From the NCBI GenBank assembly GCA_046757585.1, contig JBHHYR010000002.1:1-62393 (forward strand): DNA of 62,393 nt, written 5' to 3'. Of the stretch, positions 13,580 to 57,869 are shown in pieces. Source of the DNA: Candidatus Binatia bacterium. Lineage in GTDB: Bacteria; Desulfobacterota; Binatia; HRBIN30. A program made the translations under genes and the position numbers. Position 1 is the first letter of the stretch, and each line of letters begins with the position of its first letter. The notes under the pieces are model-generated. The model was not told the DNA's origin, searched no databases, and saw nothing but the letters and a program-made list of their open reading frames with translations.

Positions 13580-13611
13580 GAAAATGCCTCCTCGGATTGC
13601 GCTGCCCGTCT

Positions 13612-44657: not shown

Positions 44658-46158
44658 TGCCGCGAAGCGTGAATCCACCCTGGCGCGACGTCAACACGCT
44701 GCGGCGCGAGCCGGTCGGAGTGAGCGTGCCATGACGCGGCCAGGCATGTTTGCGAAGCACTGCGTGGATTTTACGTTGGCGCTCGCGGGAGTGATCTGCC
44801 TGTTACCGCTACTCGTGACCGTTGCCGTGCTCATCAAGTTGGATACGCCGGGACCGGTCTTCTTCCGACAGAAGCGGGTGGGACGGGGTGGCCGCCTCTT
44901 TGACATTTACAAGTTCCGAACCATGGTGGAGCGGGCCTACTTGATGGGATCGCGCCTGACGGTCAAGCGCGATCCGCGCGTCACGCGGCTTGGCAGGTTT
45001 CTGCGGTGGTCCAAGATCGATGAGTTGCCGCAGTTGCTCAACGTCTTGAGAGGCGAGATGAGCTTGATTGGGCCGCGCCCCGAAGACGCGCATTTCGTCA
45101 AATTCTACACCCCTCGGCAACGGCGCGTGTTGACGGTACGGCCCGGCGTTGTGGGTCCGAGCCAGATCTGGGGGCGGGACGAGGTCGAGGACTACCCCGA
45201 AGGGATCAAGGACACCGAGCAGTACTACGTGGAGCACATCCTGCCGGCGAAGCTGGAGCGCGACCTCGAGTACGTGGCAGCTGCGACGTTCTGGGGCGAC
45301 ATGTTATTGTTCGTCCGGGGTGCGTGGATCACGGTGCGCGGCGCGTTCCGGGCGAAGTACCTGTGGCGCCGCCGGCGACGCATAGCCCTCATGGGTCTCG
45401 ATGTGGCGCTGGCAGCCGCTTCGTATGCGCTGGCGCTGTTGATTCGTTTCGACTGGCACTGGCCAGGGCACGCAGAGTACACGCTCCAGACGATGGCACT
45501 CATCGCCCTGATCCGGCCCGTGGTGCTGGGGTACTTCGGGGCCTACCAGGGTGTCCTGTCGTACTTCGGATGGTGGGATCTCGTGGCCCTGTTCAAGGCG
45601 GTGTCGGTAGGGTCGGTGGCGGTTGCGGGGGTGACCTACTTCGCGGGCTCTCAGACGCATCCACGATCCGTGTTCGTGATCGACTGGGCGTTGCTGCTGT
45701 CGTTCCTGGTCAGCTCGCGCTATCTGTTCCGCACATGGGCGCGCCGGCATCCACGACGGCACGCGCGAGAAAGGGCAATCATAGTGGGTGCGGGACACGG
45801 TGGGGAACAGATCAGTCGTGCCTTACTTGAAGACCCGTCCTCCGGCTACCGTCCGATCGGTTTTATCGACGAGTCGCCAGAGCGATGGGGCTCCCGGATT
45901 CATGGCATCAAGGTCCTTGGCGGGGCCGCCGAGATGCGGCTGGCGCTTTCCGCGAATGGCGTCCGCGTAGTCTTCGTTTGTCTGTCGGATCTCACAGAGC
46001 CAACCGCCCGCGAGATAGCGGAGATCTGCACGAACGCCGGCATCGAATGTCGGATGCTTCCAGCCCTGAGCGAACTCTTGAATACTGACAGCTTCACCAT
46101 CGAACGGGCGGCCGGACAGACACCACCTGTGGCCGCACCGCACACCGAGCTGACGTGA
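44641..46158 (+). CDS. phosphoglycosyl transferase (bacterial sugar transferase domain) fused C-terminally to a 4-TM plus Rossmann-like (WbpM/PglF N-terminal-type) module
   Basis: PGT core: GPVFFRQKRVGRGGRLFDIYKFRTM and SKIDELPQLLNVLRGEMSLIGPRP. Downstream are TM helices and RAIIVGAGHGGEQISRALLED...YRPIGFIDES...IHGIKVLG. The start could also be ATG 44731. Confidence 0.8.
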   Translation: MEIDVDAAKRESTLARRQHAAARAGRSERAMTRPGMFAKHCVDFTLALAGVICLLPLLVTVAVLIKLDTPGPVFFRQKRVGRGGRLFDIYKFRTMVERAYLMGSRLTVKRDPRVTRLGRFLRWSKIDELPQLLNVLRGEMSLIGPRPEDAHFVKFYTPRQRRVLTVRPGVVGPSQIWGRDEVEDYPEGIKDTEQYYVEHILPAKLERDLEYVAAATFWGDMLLFVRGAWITVRGAFRAKYLWRRRRRIALMGLDVALAAASYALALLIRFDWHWPGHAEYTLQTMALIALIRPVVLGYFGAYQGVLSYFGWWDLVALFKAVSVGSVAVAGVTYFAGSQTHPRSVFVIDWALLLSFLVSSRYLFRTWARRHPRRHARERAIIVGAGHGGEQISRALLEDPSSGYRPIGFIDESPERWGSRIHGIKVLGGAAEMRLALSANGVRVVFVCLSDLTEPTAREIAEICTNAGIECRMLPALSELLNTDSFTIERAAGQTPPVAAPHTELT

Positions 46159-46303
46159 TCGGCAGCTTCTGCGTCCAGTGCTTTTGAACGAGCGCCCGTG
46201 CGCCGTCACCGGCGCGCGAGGCGTGTGACGGCACGAGAGCGCCACCCGCAGTGCGAAGGATTTTCCGCGCGCCCGGCCGTCGTATTAGAGGAAGGAGGGT
46301 ACC

Positions 46304-47311
46304 ATGCGAGATGGCATTGTCTTGGTCACCGGGGGAGCCGGGTACATCGGCTCCCATCTGCTCCGTCAGCTATTGCAGCGGGGATATCAAGTGCGCGTCC
46401 TCGATAAGTTCCTGTACGGGGAGCATGGCATTGCCGAACTGCGCGGGAATCCGAACCTCGAGGTGCGCTACGGTGACATCTGCAACATCCGGGATGTCGT
46501 GCAAGCAGTCAACGGTGTACGGACGGTCGTCGCCCTGGCTGCGCTGGTCGGCGATGCCGCCTGTGACCTGGATCCCCGAGAAGCACTGACAACGAACTTT
46601 GAGGCAACGCGTTGTTTACTGGAGAGCTGCCGTGAAGCCGGAGTGGAACGTGTGGTGTTTGCATCGTCGTGCAGTGTGTACGGCGCCAACGGCAACGAGC
46701 TGCTCCACGAGACTTCGTATCTCAACCCCGTCTCTCTCTATGCGCGCACCCGTATCATGTCGGAAGAGGTGCTGTTGCAAGAGCGCGGTCCCGTTGAAGT
46801 CGTCGTCCTGCGCCTGTCAACTGTATGCGGCTTGTCGCCCCGGATGCGCTTCGATCTCATGGTCAATACGATCACCGCCCGGGCCAGCGTCGAGGGACGG
46901 GTGCGTATCGTTGGCGCCAATCAATGGCGCCCGCATATACACGTGCAGGACGCTGCCCGGGCCTTCCTGTGCGCGGTCGAGGCGCCGTCTCAGGCTACGG
47001 CTGAACGGGTGTTCAACGTCGGTGCGGAGGGCCTCAATTTTACCGTGGGGGAAATCGCCGAGAAGGTAGTGCAGCAGATTCCAGGCACGGTTGTCGAGTA
47101 CTTCGACCGGATCGAGGACAAGCGTAGTTACCGGGTGGCCTTCGACCGCATCCGTGAGGAGCTGGGATTCGTGCCACTGCGCTCGGTCGACGACGCCATC
47201 CGCGAGGTCCGTACGATGCTGCAAACCGGTGAAGTGGGCGATTACGCTGATGACGTGTACCACAACGTCAAGTTTCTCCGACACTACAAGGGCCGTCGTG
47301 GGCCGAGGTGA
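46304..47311 (+). CDS. extended-SDR NAD-dependent epimerase/dehydratase-like protein with YxxxR in place of YxxxK
   Basis: Strong RBS GGAAGGAGGG. VLVTGGAGYIGSHL. The catalytic-tyrosine region reads SLYARTRIMSE. Confidence 0.8.
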   Translation: MRDGIVLVTGGAGYIGSHLLRQLLQRGYQVRVLDKFLYGEHGIAELRGNPNLEVRYGDICNIRDVVQAVNGVRTVVALAALVGDAACDLDPREALTTNFEATRCLLESCREAGVERVVFASSCSVYGANGNELLHETSYLNPVSLYARTRIMSEEVLLQERGPVEVVVLRLSTVCGLSPRMRFDLMVNTITARASVEGRVRIVGANQWRPHIHVQDAARAFLCAVEAPSQATAERVFNVGAEGLNFTVGEIAEKVVQQIPGTVVEYFDRIEDKRSYRVAFDRIREELGFVPLRSVDDAIREVRTMLQTGEVGDYADDVYHNVKFLRHYKGRRGPR

Positions 47312-48411
47312 ACGCCGGGACGTGCGCGCCGATGAAGACAGCAACCCACTTCCGGGTTGCACTTGTGGGTTGCGGTCGGATCGCCCACGTACACTGCCGG
47401 TACCTACGTCAGATGTCACAGGTGCTGCTGGTCGGGGCGTGCGATCGCAGCCGCGCAGCGCGAGAGGCGTTGACCGCCCGCTGGCAAGTGCCCACATATG
47501 CCGATATCGACGAGCTGTTGAGCGCGGCTCAGCCGGATGTTGTTCACGTCGTGACACCGCCGGCAACACACGCCGTCCTGGCGCAGCGCCTGCTCGACGC
47601 TCGGGTCCATGTGCTGGTCGAAAAGCCCATGGCTCTCACGGTGGCCGATGCCGATGCCATGCTTGCAGCCGCCCGGCGGGCCGGCAGGCACCTCACCGTC
47701 GACCACAACCGCTGGTTCGATCCCGTTGTCCAGCGGGCGCGGTCGTTGCTGGAGGCGGGGCGGCTGGGGACGCTCGTCGGTGTCGAAGTGTTCCAGGGGG
47801 CAGCGGTTGAGACGGAGCTGCGAGCAACACAAGCCGGACATTGGAAAAACTCCCTGCCCGGCGGCAGCCTGTACGATCTTGCGCCCCATCCCTGCTATCT
47901 GTTGCGCAACTTCGTGGGAAGGATCGCCGACGTGCAAGTGGTCACCCGCGCCGATCCAGGTCGACGATTGCGCGAGCTGCGTGCCGTTGTCGATGGCGAG
48001 CAGGCGCTTGGTGTTCTGACCATTTCCCTCGAGGCAGCTCCATTCATGAACCGGGTAACGCTGTTCGGCACGACCATGAGCGCGGAGGTCAATCTGAACA
48101 ACATGACGCTGGTGCTGCGCCGTACCCACCGGGTTCCCAAGCTCATCGGCAAGGTATTGCCCAATGTCGATGAGGCACTGCAGCTGCTGAGGGCCACGCT
48201 GCTCAACGGTTTCGAGTTCATCCGCGGCCGGCAACGCTACTATCCCGGTATGGGCGTTCACTTGCGCCTGTTGTACGGCGCCTTGGCAGCCGGCCAGCCC
48301 CCGCCAGTGCGCGCGGAAGACGGCCGCGAGGCCGTGTGGCTCGTCCAACAGATCTGGGAGCGGGCGGGGGTGACCATCACCGCCCCGTCGCGACGGATGG
48401 CACGCGCGTGA
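47308..48411 (+). CDS. Gfo/Idh/MocA-family oxidoreductase
   Basis: N-terminal Rossmann segment FRVALVGCGRIAH and the EKP motif HVLVEKPMAL. The start overlaps the upstream stop. Confidence 0.85.
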   Translation: MNAGTCAPMKTATHFRVALVGCGRIAHVHCRYLRQMSQVLLVGACDRSRAAREALTARWQVPTYADIDELLSAAQPDVVHVVTPPATHAVLAQRLLDARVHVLVEKPMALTVADADAMLAAARRAGRHLTVDHNRWFDPVVQRARSLLEAGRLGTLVGVEVFQGAAVETELRATQAGHWKNSLPGGSLYDLAPHPCYLLRNFVGRIADVQVVTRADPGRRLRELRAVVDGEQALGVLTISLEAAPFMNRVTLFGTTMSAEVNLNNMTLVLRRTHRVPKLIGKVLPNVDEALQLLRATLLNGFEFIRGRQRYYPGMGVHLRLLYGALAAGQPPPVRAEDGREAVWLVQQIWERAGVTITAPSRRMARA

Positions 48412-49418
48412 AGGCGTTGGTGACCGGCGGCAACGGGTTCCTGGGTAGGAGCATCGTGCGCCGTTTGTTGCGCGACGGGGTGAGCGTGCGTGCGCTGCTA
48501 CGGGCCGGCCGCTCGCTCGACATCCCTGGGGTGGACGTGTGCGAAGGGGACATTTGCGATGATGCTGCGGTGGAAACGGCGGTTCGCGGGGTCGACTGGG
48601 TTGTCCATGCGGCGGCGCGCGTCCAGACGTCTGGGGTGTGGGAGGAGTTCGCCGAGGTCAATGTCCGTGGGACGCGGCGACTCATCTGCGCGGCACACGC
48701 GGCCCAGGTACGGCGTATCGTCCACATCAGTTCGCTGAGCGTGTATGCGGTGCCACGTGATGGCGTGACGATTACTGAAGAGAGCCCATACGAGAGTGAA
48801 GCTGAGACACGCGGTGGCTATAGCCGGTCGAAACTAGCTGCGGACCGCTTGGCCCTCGACGCAGCGCAACGCGGGGCGCCTGTGGTAGTTTTGCGCCCCG
48901 GCCTGCTCTACGGCCCTGGTAAACGGCCACCGCTGGCCCGGCGGGCGTTGAGCGTCGGCCGGTTCAAGCTGATTTTGGCGAGGCCCGACTATCGATTACC
49001 GCTCGCCTACGTCGATAACGTTGCTGACGCGGTATCGCTGGCGGTGCGTACCGAGGCCGCTCTGGGCCGTGCCGTGACGCTCGTCGATGAAAACGTCCGT
49101 CAAGCCGAGTATCTTGCGCAGTATCGTGCGGCGTCGGGCGAAACCTGGCGTGCCTTGTTCCTACCGGTGGGTGCCGTTGCACTCTTGGCCCTGGTGACGG
49201 AACGTGGATTTCGGGTGCTCGGGCGCCGCCCACCCGTCAGCTACCATCAGGTCTGCCGTGCGACGTACAGCGCACGTTACGATTGTTCACGCGCCGCGCA
49301 CCTCCTGGGCTGGCATCCGGCGGTCAGCGTGCAGGAAGGCTTGCGGCGCAGTTTCGCCTCCCTGCGTCCAGCGGCCCAGAAGGCCAGTGCACCGGCAATA
49401 GTAGGCCTGATGTCATGA
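48408..49418 (+). CDS. NAD-dependent epimerase/dehydratase (3-beta-HSD-like extended SDR)
   Basis: GTG start overlaps the upstream stop (GTGA). KALVTGGNGFLGRSI. Catalytic YSRSK. Confidence 0.8.
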   Translation: MKALVTGGNGFLGRSIVRRLLRDGVSVRALLRAGRSLDIPGVDVCEGDICDDAAVETAVRGVDWVVHAAARVQTSGVWEEFAEVNVRGTRRLICAAHAAQVRRIVHISSLSVYAVPRDGVTITEESPYESEAETRGGYSRSKLAADRLALDAAQRGAPVVVLRPGLLYGPGKRPPLARRALSVGRFKLILARPDYRLPLAYVDNVADAVSLAVRTEAALGRAVTLVDENVRQAEYLAQYRAASGETWRALFLPVGAVALLALVTERGFRVLGRRPPVSYHQVCRATYSARYDCSRAAHLLGWHPAVSVQEGLRRSFASLRPAAQKASAPAIVGLMS

Positions 49419-50215
49419 CGCCGATCGATCAGCCGCCCGCCCTGAAGCACTACTACCAGGATCGAGCCGTTGTCGATTCGTATACCGAGCGCCGCATCGG
49501 CCAACCGCTGAACGGCTTACTGCATCGTCGTCAGGTGGAGTTTCTCAACCGCATGGTAGGCGAGCGGTCGCCGCACACGTTGCTGGAAGTCGCCTGCGGG
49601 CCCGGCCGCTTGACGGCGGAGATTCGCGGCGTGCGGCGCGGTATCGCCGTCGACGCCAGCCCCGCGATGCTCGAGGTTGCTGGGCAGCGGACCAACGGGG
49701 CCACGGCACACTGGTCGTTCGTGCGCACGGACGCATTTGTGCTGCCCTTCCGTTCGGAAGCATTCGATGCCGCCTACACGCTGCGCTTCATTCGCCACTT
49801 CCAGCTGGAGGACCGGCACCGTCTCTATACGGAGGTCCACCGCGTATTGCGGCGGCGGGGGGTTTTCGTGATCGATGCACTCAACCGCGACGTCTCGCTC
49901 CCCTATCGGCGCAAGCGTGGCCTCGACCGGTATCCCATTTACGACGCTCTATACCGCCGAGAAGAAATCGAAGCGGAGCTGCGCTCGGCGGGGTTTCGAG
50001 TCGTCTGCGTGGAGGGACTGATCAAGCACTATCCGGTGCAGCGTCTGTTCAACCGGCTGCGCCGCGTGAAGCTCGACCGTATCGCGACCGCCGTCATTGC
50101 GTCGATCGAACACCTGCCAGGGAGGCATCCGTCGAGCTGGATGTTGCTATGCGAAAAGGAAGGTGACTCGGGTACGACACCGTCGGCTGCTCTGACGGGC
50201 TGCGGGGGGTCGTGA
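49415..50215 (+). CDS. class I SAM-dependent methyltransferase
   Basis: ATG overlaps the upstream stop (ATGA). Motif I LLEVACGPGRL, and FDAAYTLRFIRHF. Confidence 0.8.
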   Translation: MTPIDQPPALKHYYQDRAVVDSYTERRIGQPLNGLLHRRQVEFLNRMVGERSPHTLLEVACGPGRLTAEIRGVRRGIAVDASPAMLEVAGQRTNGATAHWSFVRTDAFVLPFRSEAFDAAYTLRFIRHFQLEDRHRLYTEVHRVLRRRGVFVIDALNRDVSLPYRRKRGLDRYPIYDALYRREEIEAELRSAGFRVVCVEGLIKHYPVQRLFNRLRRVKLDRIATAVIASIEHLPGRHPSSWMLLCEKEGDSGTTPSAALTGCGGS

Positions 50216-50245
50216 TTCTCGGCGGTGAAGCATGAGGAGTCTCGG

Positions 50246-51562
50246 ATGACGACGACAGCACGACCGCAACGTAAACGAACCGCCGCGCGCGACATCCACG
50301 CACTCAGGCGCAACGGCGTCGGCCGCGTACACCTGAAATGCGCCCGCTGCGGTTACGAGGTGGCGTACGCGCGGCGCGAGGAAAAATGTGAGGCGTGCGG
50401 CTGGGAGTGGCTGGATCTGGTGTATCGGGGCGTCACGCGTGACGACATCATCAACGACAGCGACGCCTTGGGACGGGGCTCAATGTGGCGCTACCGGAGG
50501 TTGCTTCCGATCGAGGATGATCGCCACATCGTGAGCATGGGCGAGGGCATGACACCGCTGCTGCACGGGGCGAAATTCGGCGCACGTTTGGGCCTGCACC
50601 ACGTCTACATCAAAGACGAACGTCCCTCGGCGACCGGCTCGTTCAAAGATCGCGCCGCCTCGATTTGTATCAGCAACTGGGTTGAGCTGGGGATCAAGGA
50701 GATGGCTGTCAGTTCGACGGGCAACGTCGCGGCGTCTTTTGCCGCGTACAGCGCGCGGGCCGGAATCCAGCTGTGGATCTTCATGCCTGAGAAGGTCAAC
50801 GCAACGAAATATACTGAGGTGCTCTTCTACGGACAGAACGTCATCAAAGTTGAGGGCACGTATGACCAGGCGGGCATCATGGCGAAGCGGTTTGCGCAGG
50901 ACAAAGGCATACCCGTTGATCCGGGAATTCGCAGTCCCTTTCGTCGCGAATCGATGAAATCCCTGGCGTTTGAAATCGCCGAAGATCTGAACTGGGACGT
51001 GCCCGATTGGTACGTGCAGGCAGTCAGTGGCGGGATCGGGCCGCTGGGCGTGTGGAAGGGCTTCCAAGAGCTCTACGCATTAGGCCTGACGCACAAGATG
51101 CCAAAGATCGCCTGCATCCAGGCCTCCGGATGTGCGCCAATGGCGCAGGCATTTCTGCTCGATAGCGATGAGATCCTCGAGGTGACACCGCATACCGAAA
51201 TCGAGACCCTGACGACCGGGCGCCCCGCAGGGTATCCGCTCATCTACAAGGTCGTGAAGGAAAGCGGAGGACACATCGGCTCGGTCGACGATGACGAGGC
51301 CTTCCGCGCACAGGAGTTGCTAGCGCAATCGGAGGGCATCTTTGCGGAGTCGGCAGCAGCGGTCGCAGCCGGGGGACTGGTTCGGATGGCGAACGAAGGA
51401 CTCATCAAGCCCGACGAAACCGTCGTGTGCGTGTGTTCCGGCAAGGGCCTGCGCGACATCGGTTTCGTGCGCCGGCGCATGAAACAGTCGGTCTTCATCA
51501 GCTTGCCCGGCGAGTGCGCGGACTTTTCCACGATTCGGATGCATCGTGACCGAGCAAGATGA
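50246..51562 (+). CDS. threonine-synthase-like PLP-dependent (fold type II) enzyme with an N-terminal zinc ribbon
   Basis: GAGGAG lies 6 nt upstream of ATG 50246. Zn ribbon: CARCGY...CEACGW. PLP-lysine motif TGSFKDRAAS. The GGIGP loop reads SGGIGPLG. Confidence 0.8.
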   Translation: MTTTARPQRKRTAARDIHALRRNGVGRVHLKCARCGYEVAYARREEKCEACGWEWLDLVYRGVTRDDIINDSDALGRGSMWRYRRLLPIEDDRHIVSMGEGMTPLLHGAKFGARLGLHHVYIKDERPSATGSFKDRAASICISNWVELGIKEMAVSSTGNVAASFAAYSARAGIQLWIFMPEKVNATKYTEVLFYGQNVIKVEGTYDQAGIMAKRFAQDKGIPVDPGIRSPFRRESMKSLAFEIAEDLNWDVPDWYVQAVSGGIGPLGVWKGFQELYALGLTHKMPKIACIQASGCAPMAQAFLLDSDEILEVTPHTEIETLTTGRPAGYPLIYKVVKESGGHIGSVDDDEAFRAQELLAQSEGIFAESAAAVAAGGLVRMANEGLIKPDETVVCVCSGKGLRDIGFVRRRMKQSVFISLPGECADFSTIRMHRDRAR

Positions 51563-51589
51563 GCATGTGCGTGACGGAAGGTGTTGGGT

Positions 51590-52969
51590 ATGGACAGCCG
51601 ATTCAGTGATTTCATTGGTGCAGATGAGCAGGGGCACCTGTGGGTCGACCGTTGCCCAGCCGCAGACCTCGTGCAACGGTTCGGGTCTCCGCTCTACGTG
51701 ACGTCCGAAGCGCAGATCCGGCACAACTACCGCCGGTTCCTCAAGGCGTTCACCGACCGTTATCCGGACAACCGGATCATCGTCTTGTACGCGTTGAAGG
51801 CGAACAACAACCTCGCGATCCGCAGAATCTTCTACCAGGAAGGGGCGGGGTGCGACTGCTTTGGCGTAGCGGAGCTGTGGGCGACGTTCGCGGGTGGGGC
51901 CGATCCGGCAACGGTGGTGCTGAACGGTTCCAACAAACCTGAGGACGAGCTGCGAGAGGCAGTCAGGTTGGGGGTAACCGTAACCGTGGACAGCTTCGAG
52001 GAACTCGGAATGCTGAACGGGATCGCCGGGGCGGTGGGCCGCAAGGTCCGCATCCATGTCCGCTTGAAGCCGCGGCTGGAGGGCTGCGATGGTGTCTACG
52101 GGATGTTCTCGGACACCGTCGAAGTTGCGCGAGTGATCGAAACTTGGAAATGGGGCATGACATTCGCCGAAGCCTTGGCCACGGTGCAGCGTGCGCTTGA
52201 GTTGCCGTGGATCGAGCTGGTGGGTCTGCACTGTCACATCGGCCGGCAGACGGGCGAGCCGTCGCCGTACCGGGCGCAAGTGCGGGCTGTGGTGGAGCAG
52301 GCGGCAGCACTGTATGAGAAAACGCGCTGGCGGGCGCGCGTCTTTGACCTCGGTGGCGGTTTCGCACATGGGCGCGACCCCGAGGGACGACACAGCGTCG
52401 CGCACGTACCGCCGATTGAAGAATTCGCCGAAACCCTGACGTCCGCCCTGCGTGCCGAACTGGCCCGGCACCGCTTCCCGCCGCCTGCGCTCGAGTTCGA
52501 GCCCGGCCGGTTCCTGATCGGCAATACGACCGTGTTGCTCGGCACCGTCGGGGTGGTCAAGCGGACACCTGAGCTTGGGCGTGTGTGGGTACATGTCGAC
52601 TGCAGCAGCAATCAGCTCACGCGCATCATGAGCCGTGGAGATTACTACCACATCGTCGCTGCGCAGAAGCTGAACGATCCAGCCACCGAGGAGGTCGATG
52701 TGGTGGGTCCGCTCTGTATGCCGGATGTACTCGGTAGCCGGCGGAAGCTGCCTGCGCTGCACCGCGGCGATCTCGTTGCAGTGCTGGACGCTGGCATGTA
52801 CGCCGAAACGACCTCGAGTCAGTTCAACGGGCAGCCACGTCCGGCCACGGTGCTAGTGCACGGGGACGAGGCGGAGATCATCAAAACCGCAGAAACCATC
52901 GAAGACGTGTTCGCCCACCACCGGGTTCCGCAGCGGCTGGGGGGATTGGATCGGCGGCCGTCGCCGTGA
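51590..52969 (+). CDS. Orn/DAP/Arg-decarboxylase-family (fold type III) PLP decarboxylase
   Basis: FGSPLYVTSE, PLP-Lys YALKANNN, HCHIGRQ, DLGGGF, EPGRFL, GPLCMPDVL. Start placed at ATG 51590 (GGAAGGTG upstream); the ORF track start is GTG 51581. Confidence 0.85.
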   Translation: MDSRFSDFIGADEQGHLWVDRCPAADLVQRFGSPLYVTSEAQIRHNYRRFLKAFTDRYPDNRIIVLYALKANNNLAIRRIFYQEGAGCDCFGVAELWATFAGGADPATVVLNGSNKPEDELREAVRLGVTVTVDSFEELGMLNGIAGAVGRKVRIHVRLKPRLEGCDGVYGMFSDTVEVARVIETWKWGMTFAEALATVQRALELPWIELVGLHCHIGRQTGEPSPYRAQVRAVVEQAAALYEKTRWRARVFDLGGGFAHGRDPEGRHSVAHVPPIEEFAETLTSALRAELARHRFPPPALEFEPGRFLIGNTTVLLGTVGVVKRTPELGRVWVHVDCSSNQLTRIMSRGDYYHIVAAQKLNDPATEEVDVVGPLCMPDVLGSRRKLPALHRGDLVAVLDAGMYAETTSSQFNGQPRPATVLVHGDEAEIIKTAETIEDVFAHHRVPQRLGGLDRRPSP

Positions 52970-54531
52970 CCGCCGACCGCATGGCCGAAGCGGTCGCGGT
53001 CCTGAAAGCACTCAGCTCGGACGGCACCGTTCCCAGGTCTGATCTACCCTACGACGAGGTGCTCGCTGCACCGCAGCGATATCTCGGCCCGTTCTCTGCG
53101 CTCCCCGCTTCCTTGCAGCTGTATCTGATACGGTTCTATCGGACGGAAGAGGAAGTCCGGACGCTTGCCAGCGGGCCGCTGTCGCACAGCCTGATCTGTG
53201 GCGGTGCCGTGCTCAGCCGCATCCTCTACCGTAGCGAGCACCTCGCCGCACGGGTGCAAGCGCGGACACGGGAGCCGTGGAAAGGGCGTGCCGGCCGGGT
53301 CCGGCGGTGGCTCCGGCGGACGGCGCGGCAGTCCACCCACCTACCCTTCATCCTGCGCCGGTGGCTGCATCGCGCAGGCGCCTGGCTCCGCTTGCATACG
53401 GGACGTCCGCAGTTGGCGACGGTTCTCCGCGCCTCCGGCTTCGACGATCGACCGCTGGGGGCAGGGTATCTCGACGGCCTACGGCAGCTCCCCGGTTGTA
53501 TTTCGGTTCTGAAGCGACCCCAGGCCGCGGTGACCTACGCACAGCTGGTCGGCCTCGACTTCGTGCGCTCAGGGGGGATCCACTGGTTTCTCGAGGCGAA
53601 CTGCAATCCTGTCCTCATGGATGCCCGCCTCGCCCTGCACACCCCCGGTGGGGATCCGTGGGTGAACAACATGCTTCGTTGCGTGCTCACCCGTGGGTAT
53701 CGGCGCCTGATCACCTACGGATATCGGCCGTTTCCGCACGGGCATGGTGTGGCCCTGATCGAGGCGGGTCGCCGCCTCGGTGTTGATGTCAAACTCATCG
53801 ACGATTTCTTCTTCCGCCGCCATCCCGGTCACGAACGTGCATGGTTGATGCACAATGGAGCCTCGGACGCTTTCGTCGTGCGCGCCAAGACCTTCGACGT
53901 GCTCTTTGACCGCGCGGTCTTGTCGAAACAGCAGACGCGGCAGATCATCGATCAAGCGCCCGTTGATTGGGCGGCGGCCGGGGTTGCTCTACCTCCCCTC
54001 GTATGTCCGGGCCAGCAGGCGCCGCATTACCAGCCCGATTCTCGCTTCCCCAACATCGTCGCCAAGCGTGATGACTTGGACCGTGGAGCTGGCGTGTCCT
54101 TCTACAAACTCCCGCGCGTACCCGCGAAGGCGGACTGCGACGCCGATTATTTCGAGGAGTACCGCGTGCCCGATCCGTGTCCGTTCCAGATCGTCCGGGG
54201 ACAGCAACGTGCCCTTCCGGGCGGTGCTCAGAACGCTTGGAAGATCCGGAGCTATGCGCTGCTCACGCCTGAGGGGGCCGAATACCTCTCGTCGATCAAG
54301 GTCATTTCGGGCGTGCGCGTTCCGGATCATCTGCCGGACGGGAGAGTCGCGCGGAAAAATATCTACTTGGCCACCATTAACGAGGGAGGGGTGTACAGTG
54401 CGGTGACATCGGACGAGGAGGAGGTCTACCGGCGGATCGTCACGGTGGTGGGTGGGGCGTTGCTGCATTGGTTGAGGCTGAAGCATGGACCGGACTTCAA
54501 CGACCATGCCGGCGAATCACTCACACGATGA
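52966..54531 (+). CDS. hypothetical protein with ATP-grasp-like segments (sugar-transfer-associated ATP-grasp type)
   Basis: GTG overlaps the upstream stop (GTGA). The segment VGLDFVRSGGIHWFLEANCNP resembles the Mg/ATP-binding end of an ATP-grasp fold. A second region, PNIVAKRDDLDRGAGVSFYKLP...YFEEYRVPD...WKIRSYALL, resembles the central ATP-grasp strands. Confidence 0.55.
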   Translation: MTADRMAEAVAVLKALSSDGTVPRSDLPYDEVLAAPQRYLGPFSALPASLQLYLIRFYRTEEEVRTLASGPLSHSLICGGAVLSRILYRSEHLAARVQARTREPWKGRAGRVRRWLRRTARQSTHLPFILRRWLHRAGAWLRLHTGRPQLATVLRASGFDDRPLGAGYLDGLRQLPGCISVLKRPQAAVTYAQLVGLDFVRSGGIHWFLEANCNPVLMDARLALHTPGGDPWVNNMLRCVLTRGYRRLITYGYRPFPHGHGVALIEAGRRLGVDVKLIDDFFFRRHPGHERAWLMHNGASDAFVVRAKTFDVLFDRAVLSKQQTRQIIDQAPVDWAAAGVALPPLVCPGQQAPHYQPDSRFPNIVAKRDDLDRGAGVSFYKLPRVPAKADCDADYFEEYRVPDPCPFQIVRGQQRALPGGAQNAWKIRSYALLTPEGAEYLSSIKVISGVRVPDHLPDGRVARKNIYLATINEGGVYSAVTSDEEEVYRRIVTVVGGALLHWLRLKHGPDFNDHAGESLTR

Positions 54532-55994
54532 GTGTAAACCCGGACGGTGTCCGAGGAGGGAAACCGGACACGGTTGTAGCGGGAGCGGGCAATACGGTCG
54601 CCCCAGCTCACGACGTGCGCCCGGACGGTACCCTACCGCGCGATCGCAGCCTCACCCAGGACATATTTGGCACGTACAGTACGCGCCTCCTGATCATAGG
54701 GCTCAGCGTGATCACGGGTGTGATCACCGCCCGGATGCTTGGGCCACACAATCGTGGCGTGTTCGCGCTGGTCTACCAGTTTGCGGCGACGGTGGTGACT
54801 TTTGCGAAGATGGGTCTGGCCCAGTCGAGTGTCTACAGCATCCGGCGCGAGCGGGTGGGGGCCGAGCGAGTCGCTGCAAATGCCCTGTGCGTCGCACTCG
54901 TGCTCGGTCTCGCGTCGGCCCTGCTCGCCTTCGGCTTGCGGCACCGCCTGCTGGCAACAATGTTGCGCGGCGTGCCACAGTGGGCCCTGCTGATCTCCTT
55001 GCCAGTTATTCCGATCCTTCTGTTCGAAAGCTACTTCTACGCCATCCTGCAGGCACTCGGCAAATTCGGTTTGTACAACCGGCGGATGCTGATCGGCACG
55101 GTCTCGTTGGTACTTGGCCTGTTCACATTTCTCGTCGTGATACGCGGCGGTCTGGAAGCCGCGATCCTGGTTGTGGTGTGCAATCCCATCTTGATGGACG
55201 CCTGGCTCCTGGTGACGATGCACCGGATGTTTCCGTTGTCTGTACGTCCCGAGATGCCTCTGTTGTGGCGACAGGTGCGCTTCGGTGTGAAGTCGCACGC
55301 CCAGGTGCTTGCCCAGCATATGCATCTGCGGGCCGATGTGTATCTCGTGGCGTACTTTCTCAACCCTGCCCAAGTGGCGTTCTATATTCTGGCGGTTCGC
55401 TTGGCGGAGTTCATGCTCGACATCCCACGCACTGTCAGCATGGCCCTGTACCCGCGGCTCGCGTCTCTTGACGACCGGGCGATGCATCGCCTCACGGCGC
55501 AGGCTTGTCGACGGACGATATTGCTGACCACGGTTGGGGGGACACTCCTCAGCGTCGCTGGCCCGATGTTGATCGTGCTGTGGTATGGATACGCCTATGC
55601 GCCAGCCGGGCGGCCTCTGCCGTTGATTGCTGCCGGGATTGTGATGTTGTCGGTCTTCGTTTCGTTGACCCAGAGCTTCACCAGCCGCAACCGACAGCAG
55701 ATCAACATCATTGCGGGCCTGATCGCCCTAGTGGGTAACATCACGCTCAACGTGTTTCTGATTCCCGCCATGGGCATTCTCGGTGCCGCGCTATCCAGTG
55801 CCATCTCGTACGGGGTTGCATCGGCGTTGTTGCTGGCGTTTTTTGTCCGCGCCTCCGGTCTCTCCGTGGCGGAGGTTCTGATCCCCCAAGGGGACGACTT
55901 GCGCTACTTCTGGAATCTCCTGACCGGGCTGATGAATCGGAGCATGGCCGTGAGTGCCCGCTGGGCCGCTGCTCGGAGGAGAACGCTGCCGTGA
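54528..55994 (+). CDS. polysaccharide flippase (Wzx/MOP superfamily)
   Basis: ATG overlaps the upstream stop (ATGA). About 12-14 TM helices across 488 aa. The N-terminal pattern IFGTYSTRLLIIGLSVITGVITARMLGP is typical of Polysacc_synt proteins. Confidence 0.8.
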   Translation: MSVNPDGVRGGKPDTVVAGAGNTVAPAHDVRPDGTLPRDRSLTQDIFGTYSTRLLIIGLSVITGVITARMLGPHNRGVFALVYQFAATVVTFAKMGLAQSSVYSIRRERVGAERVAANALCVALVLGLASALLAFGLRHRLLATMLRGVPQWALLISLPVIPILLFESYFYAILQALGKFGLYNRRMLIGTVSLVLGLFTFLVVIRGGLEAAILVVVCNPILMDAWLLVTMHRMFPLSVRPEMPLLWRQVRFGVKSHAQVLAQHMHLRADVYLVAYFLNPAQVAFYILAVRLAEFMLDIPRTVSMALYPRLASLDDRAMHRLTAQACRRTILLTTVGGTLLSVAGPMLIVLWYGYAYAPAGRPLPLIAAGIVMLSVFVSLTQSFTSRNRQQINIIAGLIALVGNITLNVFLIPAMGILGAALSSAISYGVASALLLAFFVRASGLSVAEVLIPQGDDLRYFWNLLTGLMNRSMAVSARWAAARRRTLP

Positions 55995-56743
55995 AGTCGG
56001 TCCACAACCGGCGGGATACAACTCCGCGAACTTCAACCTCAGCGACTCCGAGCAGCTGGGCCACGCTGCGTGAGTACGTCAAGAGCCGGGGGGTATGGGG
56101 TACCGCACGCCGCCTGTTCACTGCGTTCGTGTACCATCGTGAGCATCTGGTCCTCTACTACAAGCCGATGGACCAGGAGATACAGCGGGTGACGGCGAAG
56201 GTTGCTGGCGTCATGCGGCGCGCTACGGTGGAGGATCTCGAGAGGCTCGATGTCTTCTCACATCATTACACACAAGCGCAGTTCAGACGATGGATTGAAA
56301 AAGGCTGGGCGTGGGTTTTCGAACACGACGGAAAGCTGATCGCCTACCGGGTGGTGACGCAAGAGTTGCCTCGGGTGGGCGCCCCTCGAGACCTGGTGCA
56401 ACTGGAGCCAACCGATGTCTGGGTGGTTAATATGTACACGCTGCCTGAGTATCAGGGGCTGCGCGTCCAAGCTGCACTGATCACGCACGTCCTCGCTGTG
56501 AACCAGGCCGCGGGCTTCAAACGGGAGATCAGCATCGGCCGACTCGACAACGAATCATCTCGTCGCACCATTGGATTGTCGGGCGGCCGCGAGATGGAAG
56601 AGATCATCTCTACCCGCTTGTTCGGCATCACGCGCTACCGGCTCAAGAAAACTGGGGCTCGGCGATACTACGACGGTCAAACCGTGGCCCGCACGAGTGG
56701 GAAGGAGCAACCGCGTGGCGAGAGTAACCTCCGAGGCGCTTAG
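55991..56743 (+). CDS. GNAT-family N-acetyltransferase
   Basis: GTG overlaps the upstream stop (GTGA). Motif A region: VVNMYTLPEYQGLRVQAALITHVLAV. Confidence 0.7.
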   Translation: MKSVHNRRDTTPRTSTSATPSSWATLREYVKSRGVWGTARRLFTAFVYHREHLVLYYKPMDQEIQRVTAKVAGVMRRATVEDLERLDVFSHHYTQAQFRRWIEKGWAWVFEHDGKLIAYRVVTQELPRVGAPRDLVQLEPTDVWVVNMYTLPEYQGLRVQAALITHVLAVNQAAGFKREISIGRLDNESSRRTIGLSGGREMEEIISTRLFGITRYRLKKTGARRYYDGQTVARTSGKEQPRGESNLRGA

Positions 56744-57869
56744 CGGGGTAGCCGGCCAAGATGTGACCGGTGCTCTGGCGGCGGCGACTTTCCGCTTCCG
56801 GACGGATGCCCCGGAACTCGCCCGGTATGCCCGCGCACACCTGGCGACCTTGGTTACCAAAGCTGGAGGGCCAGTGCGCATCTGTTCCACGCTCCGCTGG
56901 CACGAAGGCCAGCCCCCCCGAGATCGTACCGGCGCCTTTCCCGAACTCGCGAGCATGGAACGGATTGATCGGGATCTCTACATCGCCCCCGGACGGTTGT
57001 GTTGGTTTCGTATCGACGACCTGCGTGATCTGCACCTGTACCTGAGTTGGCGGGAGGACCGGCTGACGGTTGAAGGGGACTTCTACTACCGCCTTGCCAG
57101 TGACTGGTATCGCGACCGAGCGAAGCGCGTGCTCTACCCCCGGCGCGTTGGAGAACTACGGCGGCGGCGCTTTACCACATTACTCTATTATCTAGTCTAC
57201 TACCCTTGCTGGTGGTGGCTGGAAGAGACGCAAGATCTGCACCCGATTCACGCCGCCGGTGTCCGGACGAGCAGGAGCGGCATCCTGCTCGGTGGCGCGA
57301 GCGGTGTTGGTAAATCGACGCTCGCGGTCGCGCTGGCCAGCCTACCAGGGGCCAAACTCCTGTCGGACAGCTTTGTGCTGCACAACGGAGCCGACATGTT
57401 TGCGGTGCCAGAGCCAATTCTCTTGGACGCGTGGAGCCGGCAGTGGCTGGGTAGCAAGGGCGATGAACTCGAGGCGATCGATTGGCGCTATTGTCTCAAC
57501 CGCACCGGTTACCGCCTGCCTACCTTCCGTCTGGCCGCCGATGGCCGAGCCGGCCTGCTCCTGTTCCCAAGGCGTTCGCCGGAGACGTACGTCAAGCCGA
57601 TCTCCTCTGAACAAGCCCACGAGCGCTTGAGCGCCGCTGATCTCATCATCAACGATCTGCGGCGTTACTGGGCCTTCGCCGCGGTTGTCGAGCATCTGGT
57701 ACCGGGTCGGCTGGTGGCGCGGCGAGAGGCACAGCTGGCACGGTTGACCGCCGCGGTGCCCGGTTACGAAATTGGGCTGAAGGCGGACGCGACGTGCACG
57801 GCTACAGTGGGCTCGATCTTGGAGCTCGTGGCAGATCAGCAGTTGCGCACCGCAAACGCGCGCCAGTGA
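56715..57869 (+). CDS. HprK-related P-loop protein (HPr kinase C-terminal-domain-like)
   Basis: GTG 56715 has GAAGGAG 8 nt upstream. HAAGVRTSRSGILLGGASGVGKSTLAVALASLPGAKLLSDSFV parallels the HprK/P catalytic-domain P-loop and the following DD-type strand. Confidence 0.65.
   Translation: MARVTSEALSGVAGQDVTGALAAATFRFRTDAPELARYARAHLATLVTKAGGPVRICSTLRWHEGQPPRDRTGAFPELASMERIDRDLYIAPGRLCWFRIDDLRDLHLYLSWREDRLTVEGDFYYRLASDWYRDRAKRVLYPRRVGELRRRRFTTLLYYLVYYPCWWWLEETQDLHPIHAAGVRTSRSGILLGGASGVGKSTLAVALASLPGAKLLSDSFVLHNGADMFAVPEPILLDAWSRQWLGSKGDELEAIDWRYCLNRTGYRLPTFRLAADGRAGLLLFPRRSPETYVKPISSEQAHERLSAADLIINDLRRYWAFAAVVEHLVPGRLVARREAQLARLTAAVPGYEIGLKADATCTATVGSILELVADQQLRTANARQ

What the first reader, a model, noticed from the sequence alone, without database searches (positions are those of the whole stretch)
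50225..54531. Coupled ThrC-like enzyme, fold-III PLP decarboxylase and ATP-grasp-like protein inside the EPS locus: candidate pathway to make a small amine and ligate it to the polymer
Seen: three consecutive genes sit between a methyltransferase and the Wzx flippase. Spacing is a 27-nt gap, then a GTGA overlap, then an ATGA overlap into the flippase. The ThrC-like protein keeps the PLP lysine (SFKDR) and has a CxxC...CxxC zinc ribbon. The decarboxylase keeps YALKAN, HCHIGRQ, GGGF and EPGR, but its GPLCMPD deviates from the CESGD of LysA. The third protein has ATP-grasp-like strands. Established: capsule and O-antigen uronic acids are amidated with small amines in several bacteria, and in the Campylobacter jejuni capsule this uses PLP enzymes plus an ATP-grasp-type amide ligase. 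XrtA-type EPS loci are annotated with an associated PLP decarboxylase of unknown role. Inference: this trio makes a non-proteinogenic amine or amino acid and couples it to a carboxylate of the repeat unit. I am not aware of a ThrC-like partner in such a module.
Basis: partly seen in the sequence, partly recalled or inferred. Interest (0 to 1): 0.75.

Follow-up and report, generated by a model that had tools for sequence, protein, structure and literature searches.

The report
Amine-decoration gene trio in polysaccharide locus
Three coupled genes in a soil bacterium's slime-polysaccharide locus (two repurposed amino-acid enzymes and a previously undescribed ATP-dependent ligase) most likely make a small amine and attach it to the sugar polymer, a known kind of decoration carried out here by different enzymes.

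Summary
Three real, coupled genes lie at 50225-54531, with the 27-nt gap, the GTGA overlap and the ATGA overlap into the Wzx flippase exactly as described, and every quoted motif is present.

The order ThrC-like, decarboxylase, 521-aa protein, Wzx recurs in about a dozen independent metagenome and MAG contigs, named Candidatus Binatia where a name exists. The decarboxylase lies directly upstream of the 521-aa gene in 12 of 13 testable loci. The ThrC-like gene precedes the decarboxylase in 8 of 9.

The 521-aa protein has no Pfam, NCBIfam or PDB sequence match and only 21 close relatives among 5.8 billion proteins. A confident model (pLDDT 94.5), Foldseek hits and motif alignments place it in the ATP-grasp superfamily. 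Its segment order is swapped relative to RimK and matches glutathionylspermidine synthetase.

The decarboxylase keeps its catalytic residues and both arginines that bind a distal anion. It has lost the glutamate that reads the distal amine of diaminopimelate. The ThrC-like protein belongs to a small separate clade with altered ThrC signature motifs.

The amine-plus-amide-ligase reading is supported in outline. The substrate, the product and the acceptor remain unknown, and no uronic-acid gene is in the window. I rate it a new variant of a known kind.

The parts
50225..51562 (+). P1: ThrC-like fold-type II PLP enzyme with an N-terminal Cys4 zinc ribbon (probable start ATG 50246)
   Evidence: PF00291 matches at 4.5e-64. 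TIGR00260 thrC scores 183 bits against a cutoff of 167, and PRK08197 scores 295 against 303. The best solved relative is Aquifex ThrC 2zsj at 1.4e-57. The clade has about 17 clusters at 64-83% identity, then drops sharply to about 50% with Chloroflexi ThrC-like::REC fusions. The ThrC motifs NSxNPxRxEGQKT and VGNAGN are replaced by DPGIRSPFRRESMKS and VSGGIG.
51581..52969 (+). P2: DAP-decarboxylase-like fold-type III PLP decarboxylase (probable start ATG 51590)
   Evidence: PF02784 and PF00278 match. TIGR01048 lysA scores 315 bits against a cutoff of 298, and TIGR03099 scores 136 against 478. The best solved relative is M. jannaschii LysA 1tuf at 3e-53. Across seven orthologues YALKAN, HCHIGRQ, EPGR, LTR(I/V)MSR and GPLC(M/S)PD are conserved. 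The Glu of CESGD, which binds the distal amine of DAP, is Met or Ser here.
52966..54531 (+). P3: member of an undescribed protein family. It has a basic helical N-terminal domain (residues 1-170, pI 11.2) and a circularly permuted ATP-grasp-like ligase domain.
   Evidence: There is no Pfam, NCBIfam or PDB sequence hit. Only 21 relatives exist among 5.8e9 proteins, and 188 distant representatives. The AlphaFold2 model has pLDDT 94.5 and pTM 0.92. Foldseek finds 3k1t at E=3.3e-6 and YgiC-ADP at 1.9e-3. Of 19 weak PDB profile hits, 11 are ATP-grasp enzymes. The match to RimK comes in two pieces in swapped order. Over 80 sequences D198, N212, K367 and R428 are invariant, and E210 and K321 are nearly so.
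54528..55994 (+). Wzx-type flippase, translationally coupled to P3 by an ATGA overlap
   Evidence: Polysacc_synt, Polysacc_synt_3 and MurJ hits. The overlap is shown. It lies directly downstream of P3 in 13 of 14 loci and also next to a 28%-identical P3 relative.
55991..56743 (+). GNAT-family acyltransferase, part of the minimal conserved set P2-P3-Wzx-GNAT
   Evidence: Acetyltransf_1 matches at 7e-5. It is retained in the reduced locus L002. In L003, L004 and L022 it is preceded by an AMP-ligase and a carrier protein.
56571..57869 (+). Conserved P-loop protein distantly related to the HPr kinase C-terminal domain. Possible kinase of the pathway; its role is not shown. The coordinates give the longest ORF, and the true start is probably later.
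   Evidence: Weak hits to Hpr_kinase_C and HprK-related kinase A. Present in all full-length loci and absent from L002.
43383..50215 (+). Upstream conserved sugar-precursor genes of the same syntenic block: DegT aminotransferase, polyprenyl-phosphate glycosyl-phosphotransferase, GalE-like epimerase, GFO/IDH/MocA oxidoreductase, HpnA-like SDR and a methyltransferase.
   Evidence: The synteny is shown. These genes imply an amino sugar in the repeat unit.

Best explanation
The three genes are a dedicated decoration module of a Wzx/Wzy-dependent exopolysaccharide locus in a Candidatus Binatia-type bacterium.

P2 is a DAP-decarboxylase paralogue. Its distal pocket has lost the amine-reading Glu, keeps both anion-binding Arg and has gained further Arg. 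It decarboxylates an amino acid whose side chain ends in an anionic group (carboxylate, phosphate or sulfonate) and lacks a distal amine, giving a primary amine.

P1 is a ThrC-like PLP enzyme with a rebuilt leaving-group and phosphate site. In most loci it supplies that amino acid from a phosphorylated hydroxy-amino acid such as O-phosphohomoserine or O-phosphoserine.

P3 is a soluble, very basic, circularly permuted ATP-grasp ligase of the glutathionylspermidine-synthetase type. It activates a carboxylate as an acyl phosphate and joins it to the amine as an amide on the cytoplasmic, lipid-linked repeat unit, just before Wzx flips it.

Shown here:
- the genes and their coupling;
- the conserved synteny;
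- the family and fold assignments;
- the conserved catalytic residues and the altered specificity residues.

Inferred:
- the order of the steps;
- the identity of the amino acid and of the amine;
- that the acceptor is a sugar carboxylate.
For: Coupling and junctions were read directly.

Synteny:
- P2 is directly upstream of P3 in 12 of 13 testable independent loci.
- P1 is upstream of P2 in 8 of 9.
- Wzx is directly downstream of P3 in 13 of 14.
- A 28-33% identical P3 relative is again adjacent to Wzx, and another sits in a GT/Wzy/Asn-synthase polysaccharide locus.

P3 as an ATP-grasp enzyme:
- The model has pLDDT 94.5.
- The only Foldseek hits below E=0.01 are 3k1t (E=3.3e-6, probability 1.0) and YgiC with ADP (E=1.9e-3).
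- Of 19 weak profile-versus-PDB hits, 11 are TTL/TTLL, RimK or PurD.
- Pfam near-hits among distant members are RimK (four members), TTL, YheCD and ATP-grasp_3.
- Profile positions 181-205 align with RimK 244-268, which holds the D/E/N Mg2+ site. Positions 328-376 align with RimK 116-163, which holds the ATP lysine and the Gly loop. The same Mg2+ segment aligns with Gss 300-333.
- Those residues are invariant in 80 sequences.

YgiC is annotated as a peptide-spermidine ligase, so the nearest structural class joins a carboxylate to a free amine.

P2 pocket: in T. maritima DAPDC, R249 and R285 bind the distal carboxylate and E315 binds the distal amine. E315 substitutions shift the specificity to amino acids without that amine (PMC8277567). 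P2 has EPGR and LTR conserved and Met in place of E315. The one locus without P1 has Ser there.

P1: it forms a small clade about as rare as P3, with altered ThrC motifs.

Precedent: the C. jejuni HS:2 capsule uses a PLP decarboxylase, an aminotransferase and an ATP-dependent amidoligase acting on polymer-bound GlcA (PMC11800397; PMC11800379).
Against: - No uronic-acid-forming gene (UDP-sugar 6-dehydrogenase) was found anywhere in the 62-kb window, so a sugar carboxylate acceptor is not demonstrated.
- P1 and P2 both just pass NCBI's equivalog cutoffs for ThrC and LysA, so a plain biosynthetic role is not excluded.
- Sequence-level support for the ATP-grasp assignment is weak. hhalign against YgiC gives a probability of 2%, the matches to RimK score about 5 bits each, and no Pfam model reaches its threshold. 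The Foldseek TM-scores are low, at 0.32 and 0.37.
- L002 lacks P1 and L028 lacks an adjacent P2.
- No phosphatase like Cj1435 is present, which a phospho-amine route would need.
- The ThrC phosphate-site residue list used here is from memory, because the primary papers were not held.
Confidence: 0.5

Rival explanations
1. The steps run in the reverse order, as in butirosin biosynthesis (BtrJ/BtrK). P3 first ligates the side-chain carboxylate of an acidic amino acid (Glu, Asp or the P1 product) to the amino group of the DegT-derived amino sugar. P2 then decarboxylates the tethered amino acid at its free alpha centre, leaving an omega-aminoacyl N-acyl group. The conserved GNAT caps that group; in some loci the GNAT is fed by an AMP-ligase and a carrier protein.
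For: - An amino-sugar pathway is conserved in the block: DegT, a GFO/IDH/MocA oxidoreductase and SDRs. No uronic-acid gene is present.
- BtrK, which decarboxylates an L-glutamyl carrier protein, is a solved relative of P2 (7ru7 at 6e-32 and 2j66).
- The minimal conserved set is P2-P3-Wzx-GNAT.
- An AMP-binding gene and a PP-binding gene sit beside the GNAT in L003, L004 and L022.
- The retained Arg pair in P2 could hold an anionic nucleotide-sugar or lipid-pyrophosphate moiety.
- That BtrJ is an ATP-grasp ligase is my own recollection.
Against: - P2 is much closer to LysA (1e-53) than to BtrK.
- The nearest structural class of P3, GspS/YgiC, uses a free amine as nucleophile.
- Nothing shows that P2 can accept a bulky tethered substrate.
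Confidence: 0.2
2. P1 and P2 are true threonine synthase and diaminopimelate decarboxylase copies. They boost local supply of Thr or Lys, and P3 ligates the intact amino acid to a uronic acid, as in polysaccharides that carry amide-linked Thr or Lys.
For: - Both proteins pass the NCBIfam equivalog cutoffs: TIGR00260 at 183 bits against 167, and TIGR01048 at 315 against 298.
- All PLP-binding and catalytic motifs are intact.
- In L021 the P1-P2 pair lies next to housekeeping genes: lon, rplU/rpmA, obg and proB.
- T. maritima E315 mutants keep some DAP activity.
- That polysaccharides with Thr and Lys amides exist is my own recollection.
Against: - The Glu that reads the distal amine of DAP is absent from every orthologue, and a second pocket residue changes from Tyr to Arg.
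- Two ThrC signature motifs that are conserved in all five solved ThrC structures are altered.
- The P1 clade has only about 17 clusters, like P3, and its nearest relatives are Chloroflexi REC fusions embedded among sensor kinases rather than in thr operons.
- P1-P2 adjacency follows P3 and the EPS locus rather than hom/thrB or dap genes.
Confidence: 0.15
3. The trio makes a small soluble product, such as a modified amino acid, a dipeptide-like compound or a polyamine conjugate. That product is unrelated to the polymer, and its place in the EPS locus is incidental or regulatory.
For: - Distant P3 relatives occur outside polysaccharide loci (L013 and L015).
- GspS/YgiC-type and RimK-type ligases make small-molecule or peptide conjugates.
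Against: - P3 overlaps wzx by ATGA.
- Adjacency to Wzx is kept in 13 of 14 loci and even at 28-33% identity.
- The whole 15-gene EPS block is co-inherited.
Confidence: 0.08

Closest known systems
Campylobacter jejuni HS:2 capsule amidation (Cj1436 decarboxylase, Cj1437 aminotransferase, Cj1438 C-terminal amidoligase, Cj1435 phosphatase)
   Same: PLP enzymes make a small amine, and an ATP-dependent ligase of the ATP-grasp class puts it on a sugar carboxylate of the growing polysaccharide. All the genes sit in the polysaccharide locus (PMC11800397; PMC11800379).
   Different: [quoted passage not shown]
- The decarboxylase here is fold-type III and LysA-like.
- A ThrC-like enzyme is added here.
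- No HAD phosphatase is present here.
- This is a Wzx/Wzy pathway rather than an ABC-transporter pathway.
- A uronic-acid acceptor is not shown here.
Glutathionylspermidine synthetase / YgiC-YjfC peptide-spermidine ligases, and the uncharacterised protein 3k1t
   Same: These are the best structural matches to the P3 model. The Mg2+-binding D/E/N segment comes before the ATP-lysine segment, as in P3. Their chemistry joins a carboxylate to a free amine (annotation).
   Different: There is no significant sequence similarity: hhalign gives a probability of 2% and there is no PF03738 hit. P3 carries a unique basic helical N-terminal domain of 170 residues and is coupled to Wzx.
Diaminopimelate decarboxylase LysA (TIGR01048; 1tuf, 2yxx)
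   Same: The fold is shared, identity is about 33%, and the score is just above the equivalog cutoff. Conserved features are the PLP Lys (YALKAN), the His, EPGR, the Cys, the Tyr and both Arg that bind the distal carboxylate.
   Different: - Glu of CESGD becomes Met or Ser.
- Tyr of RPAxY becomes Arg.
- Ser of HIGSQ becomes Arg.
- There is an insertion of about 8 residues.
- The gene is always next to P3 and Wzx rather than dap genes.
Threonine synthase, class I (TIGR00260; 2zsj, 1uim), and its offshoot cysteate synthase
   Same: About 40% identity to Aquifex ThrC. The PLP Lys (SFKDR), the STGN loop and the overall fold are shared, and the score is above the TIGR00260 cutoff. Cysteate synthase shows that this fold can evolve a new beta-replacement reaction; it scores 124 bits against a cutoff of 325.
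   Different: NSxNPxRxEGQKT becomes DPGIRSPFRRESMKS, and VGNAGN becomes VSGGIG. P1 belongs to a separate clade that is sister to Chloroflexi ThrC-like::REC fusions.
XrtA/PEP-CTERM-associated PLP decarboxylase (TIGR03099)
   Same: It has the same fold and also occurs in EPS loci. Neighbouring genes in the window give sub-threshold matches to XrtA-associated families.
   Different: P2 scores 136 bits against a cutoff of 478 and is not a member. No exosortase was seen in the window.

Membership tests
Threonine synthase (TIGR00260 / class I ThrC) | Score above the curated equivalog cutoff | tested here: met
   183 bits against a cutoff of 167.1. The more specific PRK08197 model just fails, at 295.2 against 303.
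Threonine synthase (TIGR00260 / class I ThrC) | PLP-binding Lys and the substrate-carboxylate loop (S-T-G-N) | tested here: met
   SFKDR and SSTGNV align with 2zsj and 1uim and are invariant in the clade.
Threonine synthase (TIGR00260 / class I ThrC) | Phosphate and leaving-group site motifs NSxNPxRxEGQKT and VGNAGN. By my recollection of the T. thermophilus structures these hold T88, N154, S155, R160 and N188. | tested here: not met
   All five solved ThrC keep R-x-EGQKT, and the four class I bacterial ones keep GNAGN. P1 and its clade have RRESMKS and SGGIG, and only the Arg is kept. The residue roles are from memory; the papers were not held.
Threonine synthase (TIGR00260 / class I ThrC) | Genomic role as the housekeeping thrC (sole copy, or linked to hom/thrB) | not testable with these tools
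   Only single contigs are available. In every locus inspected, P1 is next to P2.
Diaminopimelate decarboxylase LysA (TIGR01048) | Score above the curated equivalog cutoff, with catalytic residues intact | tested here: met
   315.1 bits against a cutoff of 297.9. The Lys, His, EPGR, Cys and Tyr are conserved.
Diaminopimelate decarboxylase LysA (TIGR01048) | [quoted passage not shown] | tested here: not met
   It is Met in six orthologues and Ser in one. The role of E315 is taken from PMC8277567.
XrtA-associated PLP decarboxylase (TIGR03099) | Score above the curated cutoff | tested here: not met
   136.5 bits against a cutoff of 478.45.
ATP-grasp superfamily | A significant match to an ATP-grasp sequence model | tested here: not met
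   No Pfam or NCBIfam hit for P3. Only sub-threshold hits appear among relatives: YheCD in 3 of 20 members at E=0.24, and RimK in 4 of 80 at best 0.0019. hhalign against YgiC gives a probability of 2%.
ATP-grasp superfamily | An ATP-grasp-like fold | tested here: inconclusive
   The confident model (pLDDT 94.5) has as its only Foldseek hits below E=0.01 the entries 3k1t (3.3e-6, probability 1.0) and YgiC-ADP (1.9e-3). The TM-scores are only 0.22-0.37. That 3k1t has an ATP-grasp fold is my own recollection.
ATP-grasp superfamily | Mg2+-binding D/E/N triad, ATP-binding Lys and the Gly-rich loop | tested here: met
   G196-x-D198...E210-x-N212 aligns with RimK 244-268 and Gss 300-333. PN-x-V-x-K367...G-x-G-V aligns with RimK 116-163. 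The residues are invariant or nearly so in 80 sequences. The alignment scores are low.
TupA-like ATP-grasp amidoligase (Cj1438 C-terminal domain type) | A match to the TupA-like ATP-grasp model or fold | tested here: not met
   No such Pfam hit at E up to 10 in 20 members, or up to 0.1 in 80 members. The fold of Cj1438C is taken from PMC11800379. A direct comparison with the Cj1438 sequence was not possible.
Glutathionylspermidine synthetase / YgiC family | Sequence membership (GSP_synth model), and a segment order with the Mg2+ site before the ATP lysines | tested here: inconclusive
   The order matches and YgiC is the second-best structural hit. There is no sequence-model hit.

The most novel reading that the evidence does not exclude
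P3 founds a previously undescribed family of circularly permuted ATP-grasp amidoligases that work on lipid-linked polysaccharide repeat units. P1 and P2 are neofunctionalised ThrC and LysA paralogues that together make a non-proteinogenic amino acid and its amine. Candidates are an aminoalkyl phosphate or a sulfonate such as taurine, formed by a cysteate-synthase-like step followed by decarboxylation. The result would be a polysaccharide substituent and a biosynthetic route not yet described.
Probability: 0.35. Interest if true: 0.75.

Novelty: new variant of a known kind. Interest (0 to 1): 0.6.

Why it matters
Amide-linked amines and amino acids change the charge, antigenicity and physical behaviour of bacterial polysaccharides. 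For nearly all such decorations the enzymes are unknown. The Campylobacter HS:2 system is the one worked-out case cited here.

This locus offers a second, non-homologous solution, with a clear and testable three-enzyme core. It assigns a likely fold and catalytic residues to a protein family that no database currently describes, with about 190 divergent representatives. It also gives two concrete examples of genes that automatic annotation would call thrC and lysA but that probably are neither. That matters for metabolic reconstruction of uncultured Binatia.

Tried and rejected
- Pfam, NCBIfam and PDB sequence searches of P3 found nothing usable.
- The first AlphaFold2 model, built from 20 close homologues, was only moderate (pLDDT 71) and gave weak Foldseek hits. 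It was superseded by the 80-sequence model.
- The third large homology search, run with the 80-sequence alignment, returned only the same 21 close relatives and added nothing.
- hhalign of the family profile against single E. coli YgiC was not significant.
- A literature search for the combination ThrC, DAP decarboxylase, ATP-grasp and polysaccharide found no paper. A search for '3K1T' found nothing relevant.
- The ThrC mechanism papers and the original Cj1438 paper were not held.
- I considered that P2 is the exosortase-A-associated decarboxylase and rejected it on score.
- I considered that the Chloroflexi ThrC-like::REC relatives are ordinary thrC in a thr operon. The one locus inspected sits among sensor kinases instead.
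- I looked for a uronic-acid-forming dehydrogenase and for a phosphatase across the whole window and found none.
- I looked for transmembrane segments in P3 and found none.

Full report
**1. The observation**

The window holds three consecutive + strand ORFs:
- P1 at 50225-51562 (445 aa);
- P2 at 51581-52969 (462 aa);
- P3 at 52966-54531 (521 aa).

All three show the high third-position GC of real genes in this 62% GC sequence.

- P1 ends at TGA 51560-51562 and P2's ATG is at 51590, leaving 27 nt.
- P2 and P3 share GTGA at 52966-52969.
- P3 and the flippase share ATGA at 54528-54531.

P1 probably starts at ATG 50246, which follows a GAGGAG site. That start gives the 438-aa protein on record. 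All quoted motifs are present. Upstream lies a class I methyltransferase and downstream a Wzx-type flippase.

**2. Context**

The left half of the window is ordinary chromosome: ddl, aroQ/aroB/aroK, pilMNOQ, uvrD.

From about 32 kb onward it is a Wzx/Wzy-type exopolysaccharide locus. In order it contains:
- sigma-54 regulators and an RfaH-like antiterminator;
- an export protein, a chain-length determinant, a tyrosine kinase and Wzy;
- a DegT aminotransferase and a polyprenyl-phosphate glycosyl-phosphotransferase;
- two SDR epimerase/reductases, a GFO/IDH/MocA oxidoreductase and a methyltransferase;
- the trio, then Wzx;
- a GNAT, a P-loop protein distantly like HPr kinase, and a GT4;
- a NodU-like carbamoyltransferase and an SGNH/AlgX protein.

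Several genes give sub-threshold matches to XrtA/PEP-CTERM-associated families. None reaches its cutoff, and no exosortase was seen. No UDP-sugar 6-dehydrogenase is present.

**3. Conservation**

P3 has only 21 relatives (54-71% identity) among 5.8 billion clustered proteins. All come from metagenomes or MAGs. The named ones are Candidatus Binatia and one 'Deltaproteobacteria' MAG.

Gene calls and tblastn on the fetched contigs show the same 15-gene order from degT to the SGNH gene. Counting independent loci where the flank exists:
- P2 is directly upstream of P3 in 12 of 13. The exception is L028.
- P1 is directly upstream of P2 in 8 of 9. The exception is L002, where a glycosyltransferase precedes P2.
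- Wzx directly follows P3 in 13 of 14.

The minimal set, seen in L002, is P2-P3-Wzx-GNAT.

A P3 relative of about 28-33% identity is again next to Wzx (L012). Another sits among GT, Wzy and Asn-synthase genes (L011). More distant relatives occur in unrelated contexts.

Some loci carry two divergent P3 paralogues around wzx (L010 and L012). Some insert an AMP-ligase and a carrier protein before the GNAT.

**4. P3**

No Pfam, NCBIfam or PDB sequence match exists. A profile search of 1.84 billion representatives found 188 relatives.

With 80 of them as the alignment, AlphaFold2 gave pLDDT 94.5 and pTM 0.92. With close homologues alone it had given 71.

Several lines of evidence point the same way:
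- Foldseek against the PDB returns only two hits below E=0.01. These are 3k1t (E=3.3e-6, probability 1.0, 434 aligned columns) and E. coli YgiC with ADP (E=1.9e-3). TM-scores are low, at 0.22-0.37. YgiC is annotated as a peptide-spermidine ligase.
- A profile search of PDB sequences gives only weak hits, but 11 of the 19 are ATP-grasp enzymes: TTL/TTLL, PurD and four RimK-type ligases.
- The Pfam near-hits among distant members are likewise RimK, TTL, YheCD and ATP-grasp_3.
- A local hmmsearch shows the architecture. Profile positions 181-205 (GxD...ExN) align with RimK 244-268, the Mg2+ site at the end of a normal ATP-grasp domain. Positions 328-376 (PNxVxK...GxGV) align with RimK 116-163, the ATP lysine and glycine loop. 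The order is therefore swapped relative to RimK.
- The same Mg2+ segment aligns with Gss 300-333, where it also precedes the ATP site.
- Over 80 sequences D198, N212, K367 and R428 are invariant, E210 is kept in 78 and K321 in 79.

P3 has no transmembrane segment. Its first 170 residues form long helices with a pI of 11.2.

My reading is an ATP-grasp-superfamily amide ligase with the permuted, glutathionylspermidine-synthetase-like layout, in a family not yet described. The individual statistics are weak. The agreement between fold, motif order and invariant residues is what carries the conclusion.

**5. P2**

P2 is a fold-type III decarboxylase closest to LysA (1tuf at 3e-53; TIGR01048 at 315 bits against a cutoff of 298). 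It is not the XrtA-associated family, scoring 136 against 478.

The catalytic residues are kept in all seven orthologues.

Published mutagenesis of T. maritima DAPDC shows that R249 (of EPGR) and R285 bind the distal carboxylate and that E315 (of CES) binds the distal amine. Replacing E315 moves activity to amino acids without that amine (PMC8277567).

P2 keeps both Arg but differs at three positions:
- Met replaces E315. In L002, the one locus without P1, it is Ser.
- The Tyr of RPAxY is Arg.
- The Ser of HIGSQ is Arg.

This predicts a substrate with an anionic distal group and no distal ammonium, so not DAP, ornithine or lysine.

**6. P1**

P1 is ThrC-like (2zsj at 1.4e-57). It passes TIGR00260 marginally and just fails PRK08197.

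Its orthologues form a tight group of about 17 clusters. Identity then drops sharply to about 50%, with Chloroflexi proteins in which the same domain is fused to a receiver domain. One of those fusions lies among GAF/PAS sensor kinases, not thr genes.

Both groups differ from canonical ThrC at two signatures:
- RRESMKS or ARESMKT in place of R-x-EGQKT, which all five solved ThrC conserve;
- SGG(I/L/M)G in place of GNAGN, which the four class I bacterial structures conserve.

By my recollection of the T. thermophilus structures, these motifs carry four of the five residues that hold the substrate phosphate. I could not check this in the literature.

P1 is thus a competent PLP enzyme of the ThrC fold with a rebuilt leaving-group site. 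Its reaction is unknown.

**7. Mechanism**

The best-supported scheme has three steps:
- P1 makes an amino acid from a phosphorylated hydroxy-amino acid. This step is optional across loci.
- P2 decarboxylates an amino acid with an anionic side chain to an amine.
- P3 couples that amine to a carboxylate through an acyl phosphate, on the cytoplasmic lipid-linked repeat unit just before Wzx acts.

This mirrors the Campylobacter jejuni HS:2 capsule. There, a decarboxylase and an aminotransferase make ethanolamine phosphate and serinol phosphate, and the C-terminal ATP-grasp domain of Cj1438 amidates polymer-bound glucuronate (PMC11800397; PMC11800379).

The enzymes are not the same, however. Cj1438C is TupA-like, whereas P3 is not.

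The rivals are:
- A butirosin-like order, with ligation to the amino sugar first and decarboxylation of the tethered amino acid second. The conserved amino-sugar genes, the GNAT and the lack of any uronic-acid gene favour this one.
- Plain supply of Thr or Lys by true ThrC and LysA copies.
- A soluble product unrelated to the polymer.

The identity of the amine cannot be derived from sequence. An aminoalkyl phosphate and taurine (via a cysteate-synthase-like step) are chemically reasonable guesses that fit the Arg-rich pocket. They are only guesses.

**8. Verdict**

- The finding is real and well conserved.
- It is a new variant of a known kind of system, built around a protein family that no database describes and two probable mis-annotation traps (thrC and lysA).
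- I give 0.5 to the amine-plus-amide-ligase model as stated.
- Interest is 0.6.

Noticed in passing
window 44596-46158 (+): The polyprenyl-phosphate glycosyl-phosphotransferase has its Bac_transf catalytic domain at residues 54-245 and its CoA_binding_3 domain at 332-489. As I recall, EpsB/WbaP-type enzymes have the opposite order. The NCBIfam models match in two stretches accordingly.
   Followed up: no
window 56571-57869 (+): A conserved 432-aa P-loop protein (GASGVGKST) gives only weak matches to the HPr-kinase C-terminal domain and to 'HprK-related kinase A'. It is present in every full locus and missing from L002, the locus that also lacks P1. It could be a pathway kinase.
   Followed up: partly
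L010 7151-11497; L012 1828-6300; L011 8001-10933: Some loci carry two divergent P3 paralogues (30-44% identity to P3), either flanking wzx or in tandem. In L011 they sit next to two asparagine-synthase-like amidotransferases.
   Followed up: partly
L003 9727-12172; L004 5068-7513; L022 14741-17197: In these variants an AMP-forming ligase and a small carrier protein are inserted between wzx and the GNAT. This suggests that the GNAT transfers a carrier-bound acyl group there.
   Followed up: no
L018 8001-9653 (P0045 and about 100 similar proteins): Chloroflexi encode a large family of zinc-ribbon ThrC-like domains fused to a C-terminal receiver domain. They share the altered ThrC motifs of P1. 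The one locus inspected lies among large GAF/PAS sensor kinases.
   Followed up: partly
L021 9001-11652: A 66%-identical P1 and a 72%-identical P2 sit at a contig end, next to housekeeping genes (lon, rplU/rpmA, obg, proB) rather than sugar genes. The contig stops before any P3 could appear.
   Followed up: partly
window 8021-13615 (-): A 1864-aa protein with repeated Big_1 and invasin D3 domains, probably a large surface adhesin, lies between aroQ and aroB.
   Followed up: no
L001 11611-12792: An extra 393-aa ORF with no Pfam match lies between P3 and wzx in this locus only.
   Followed up: no
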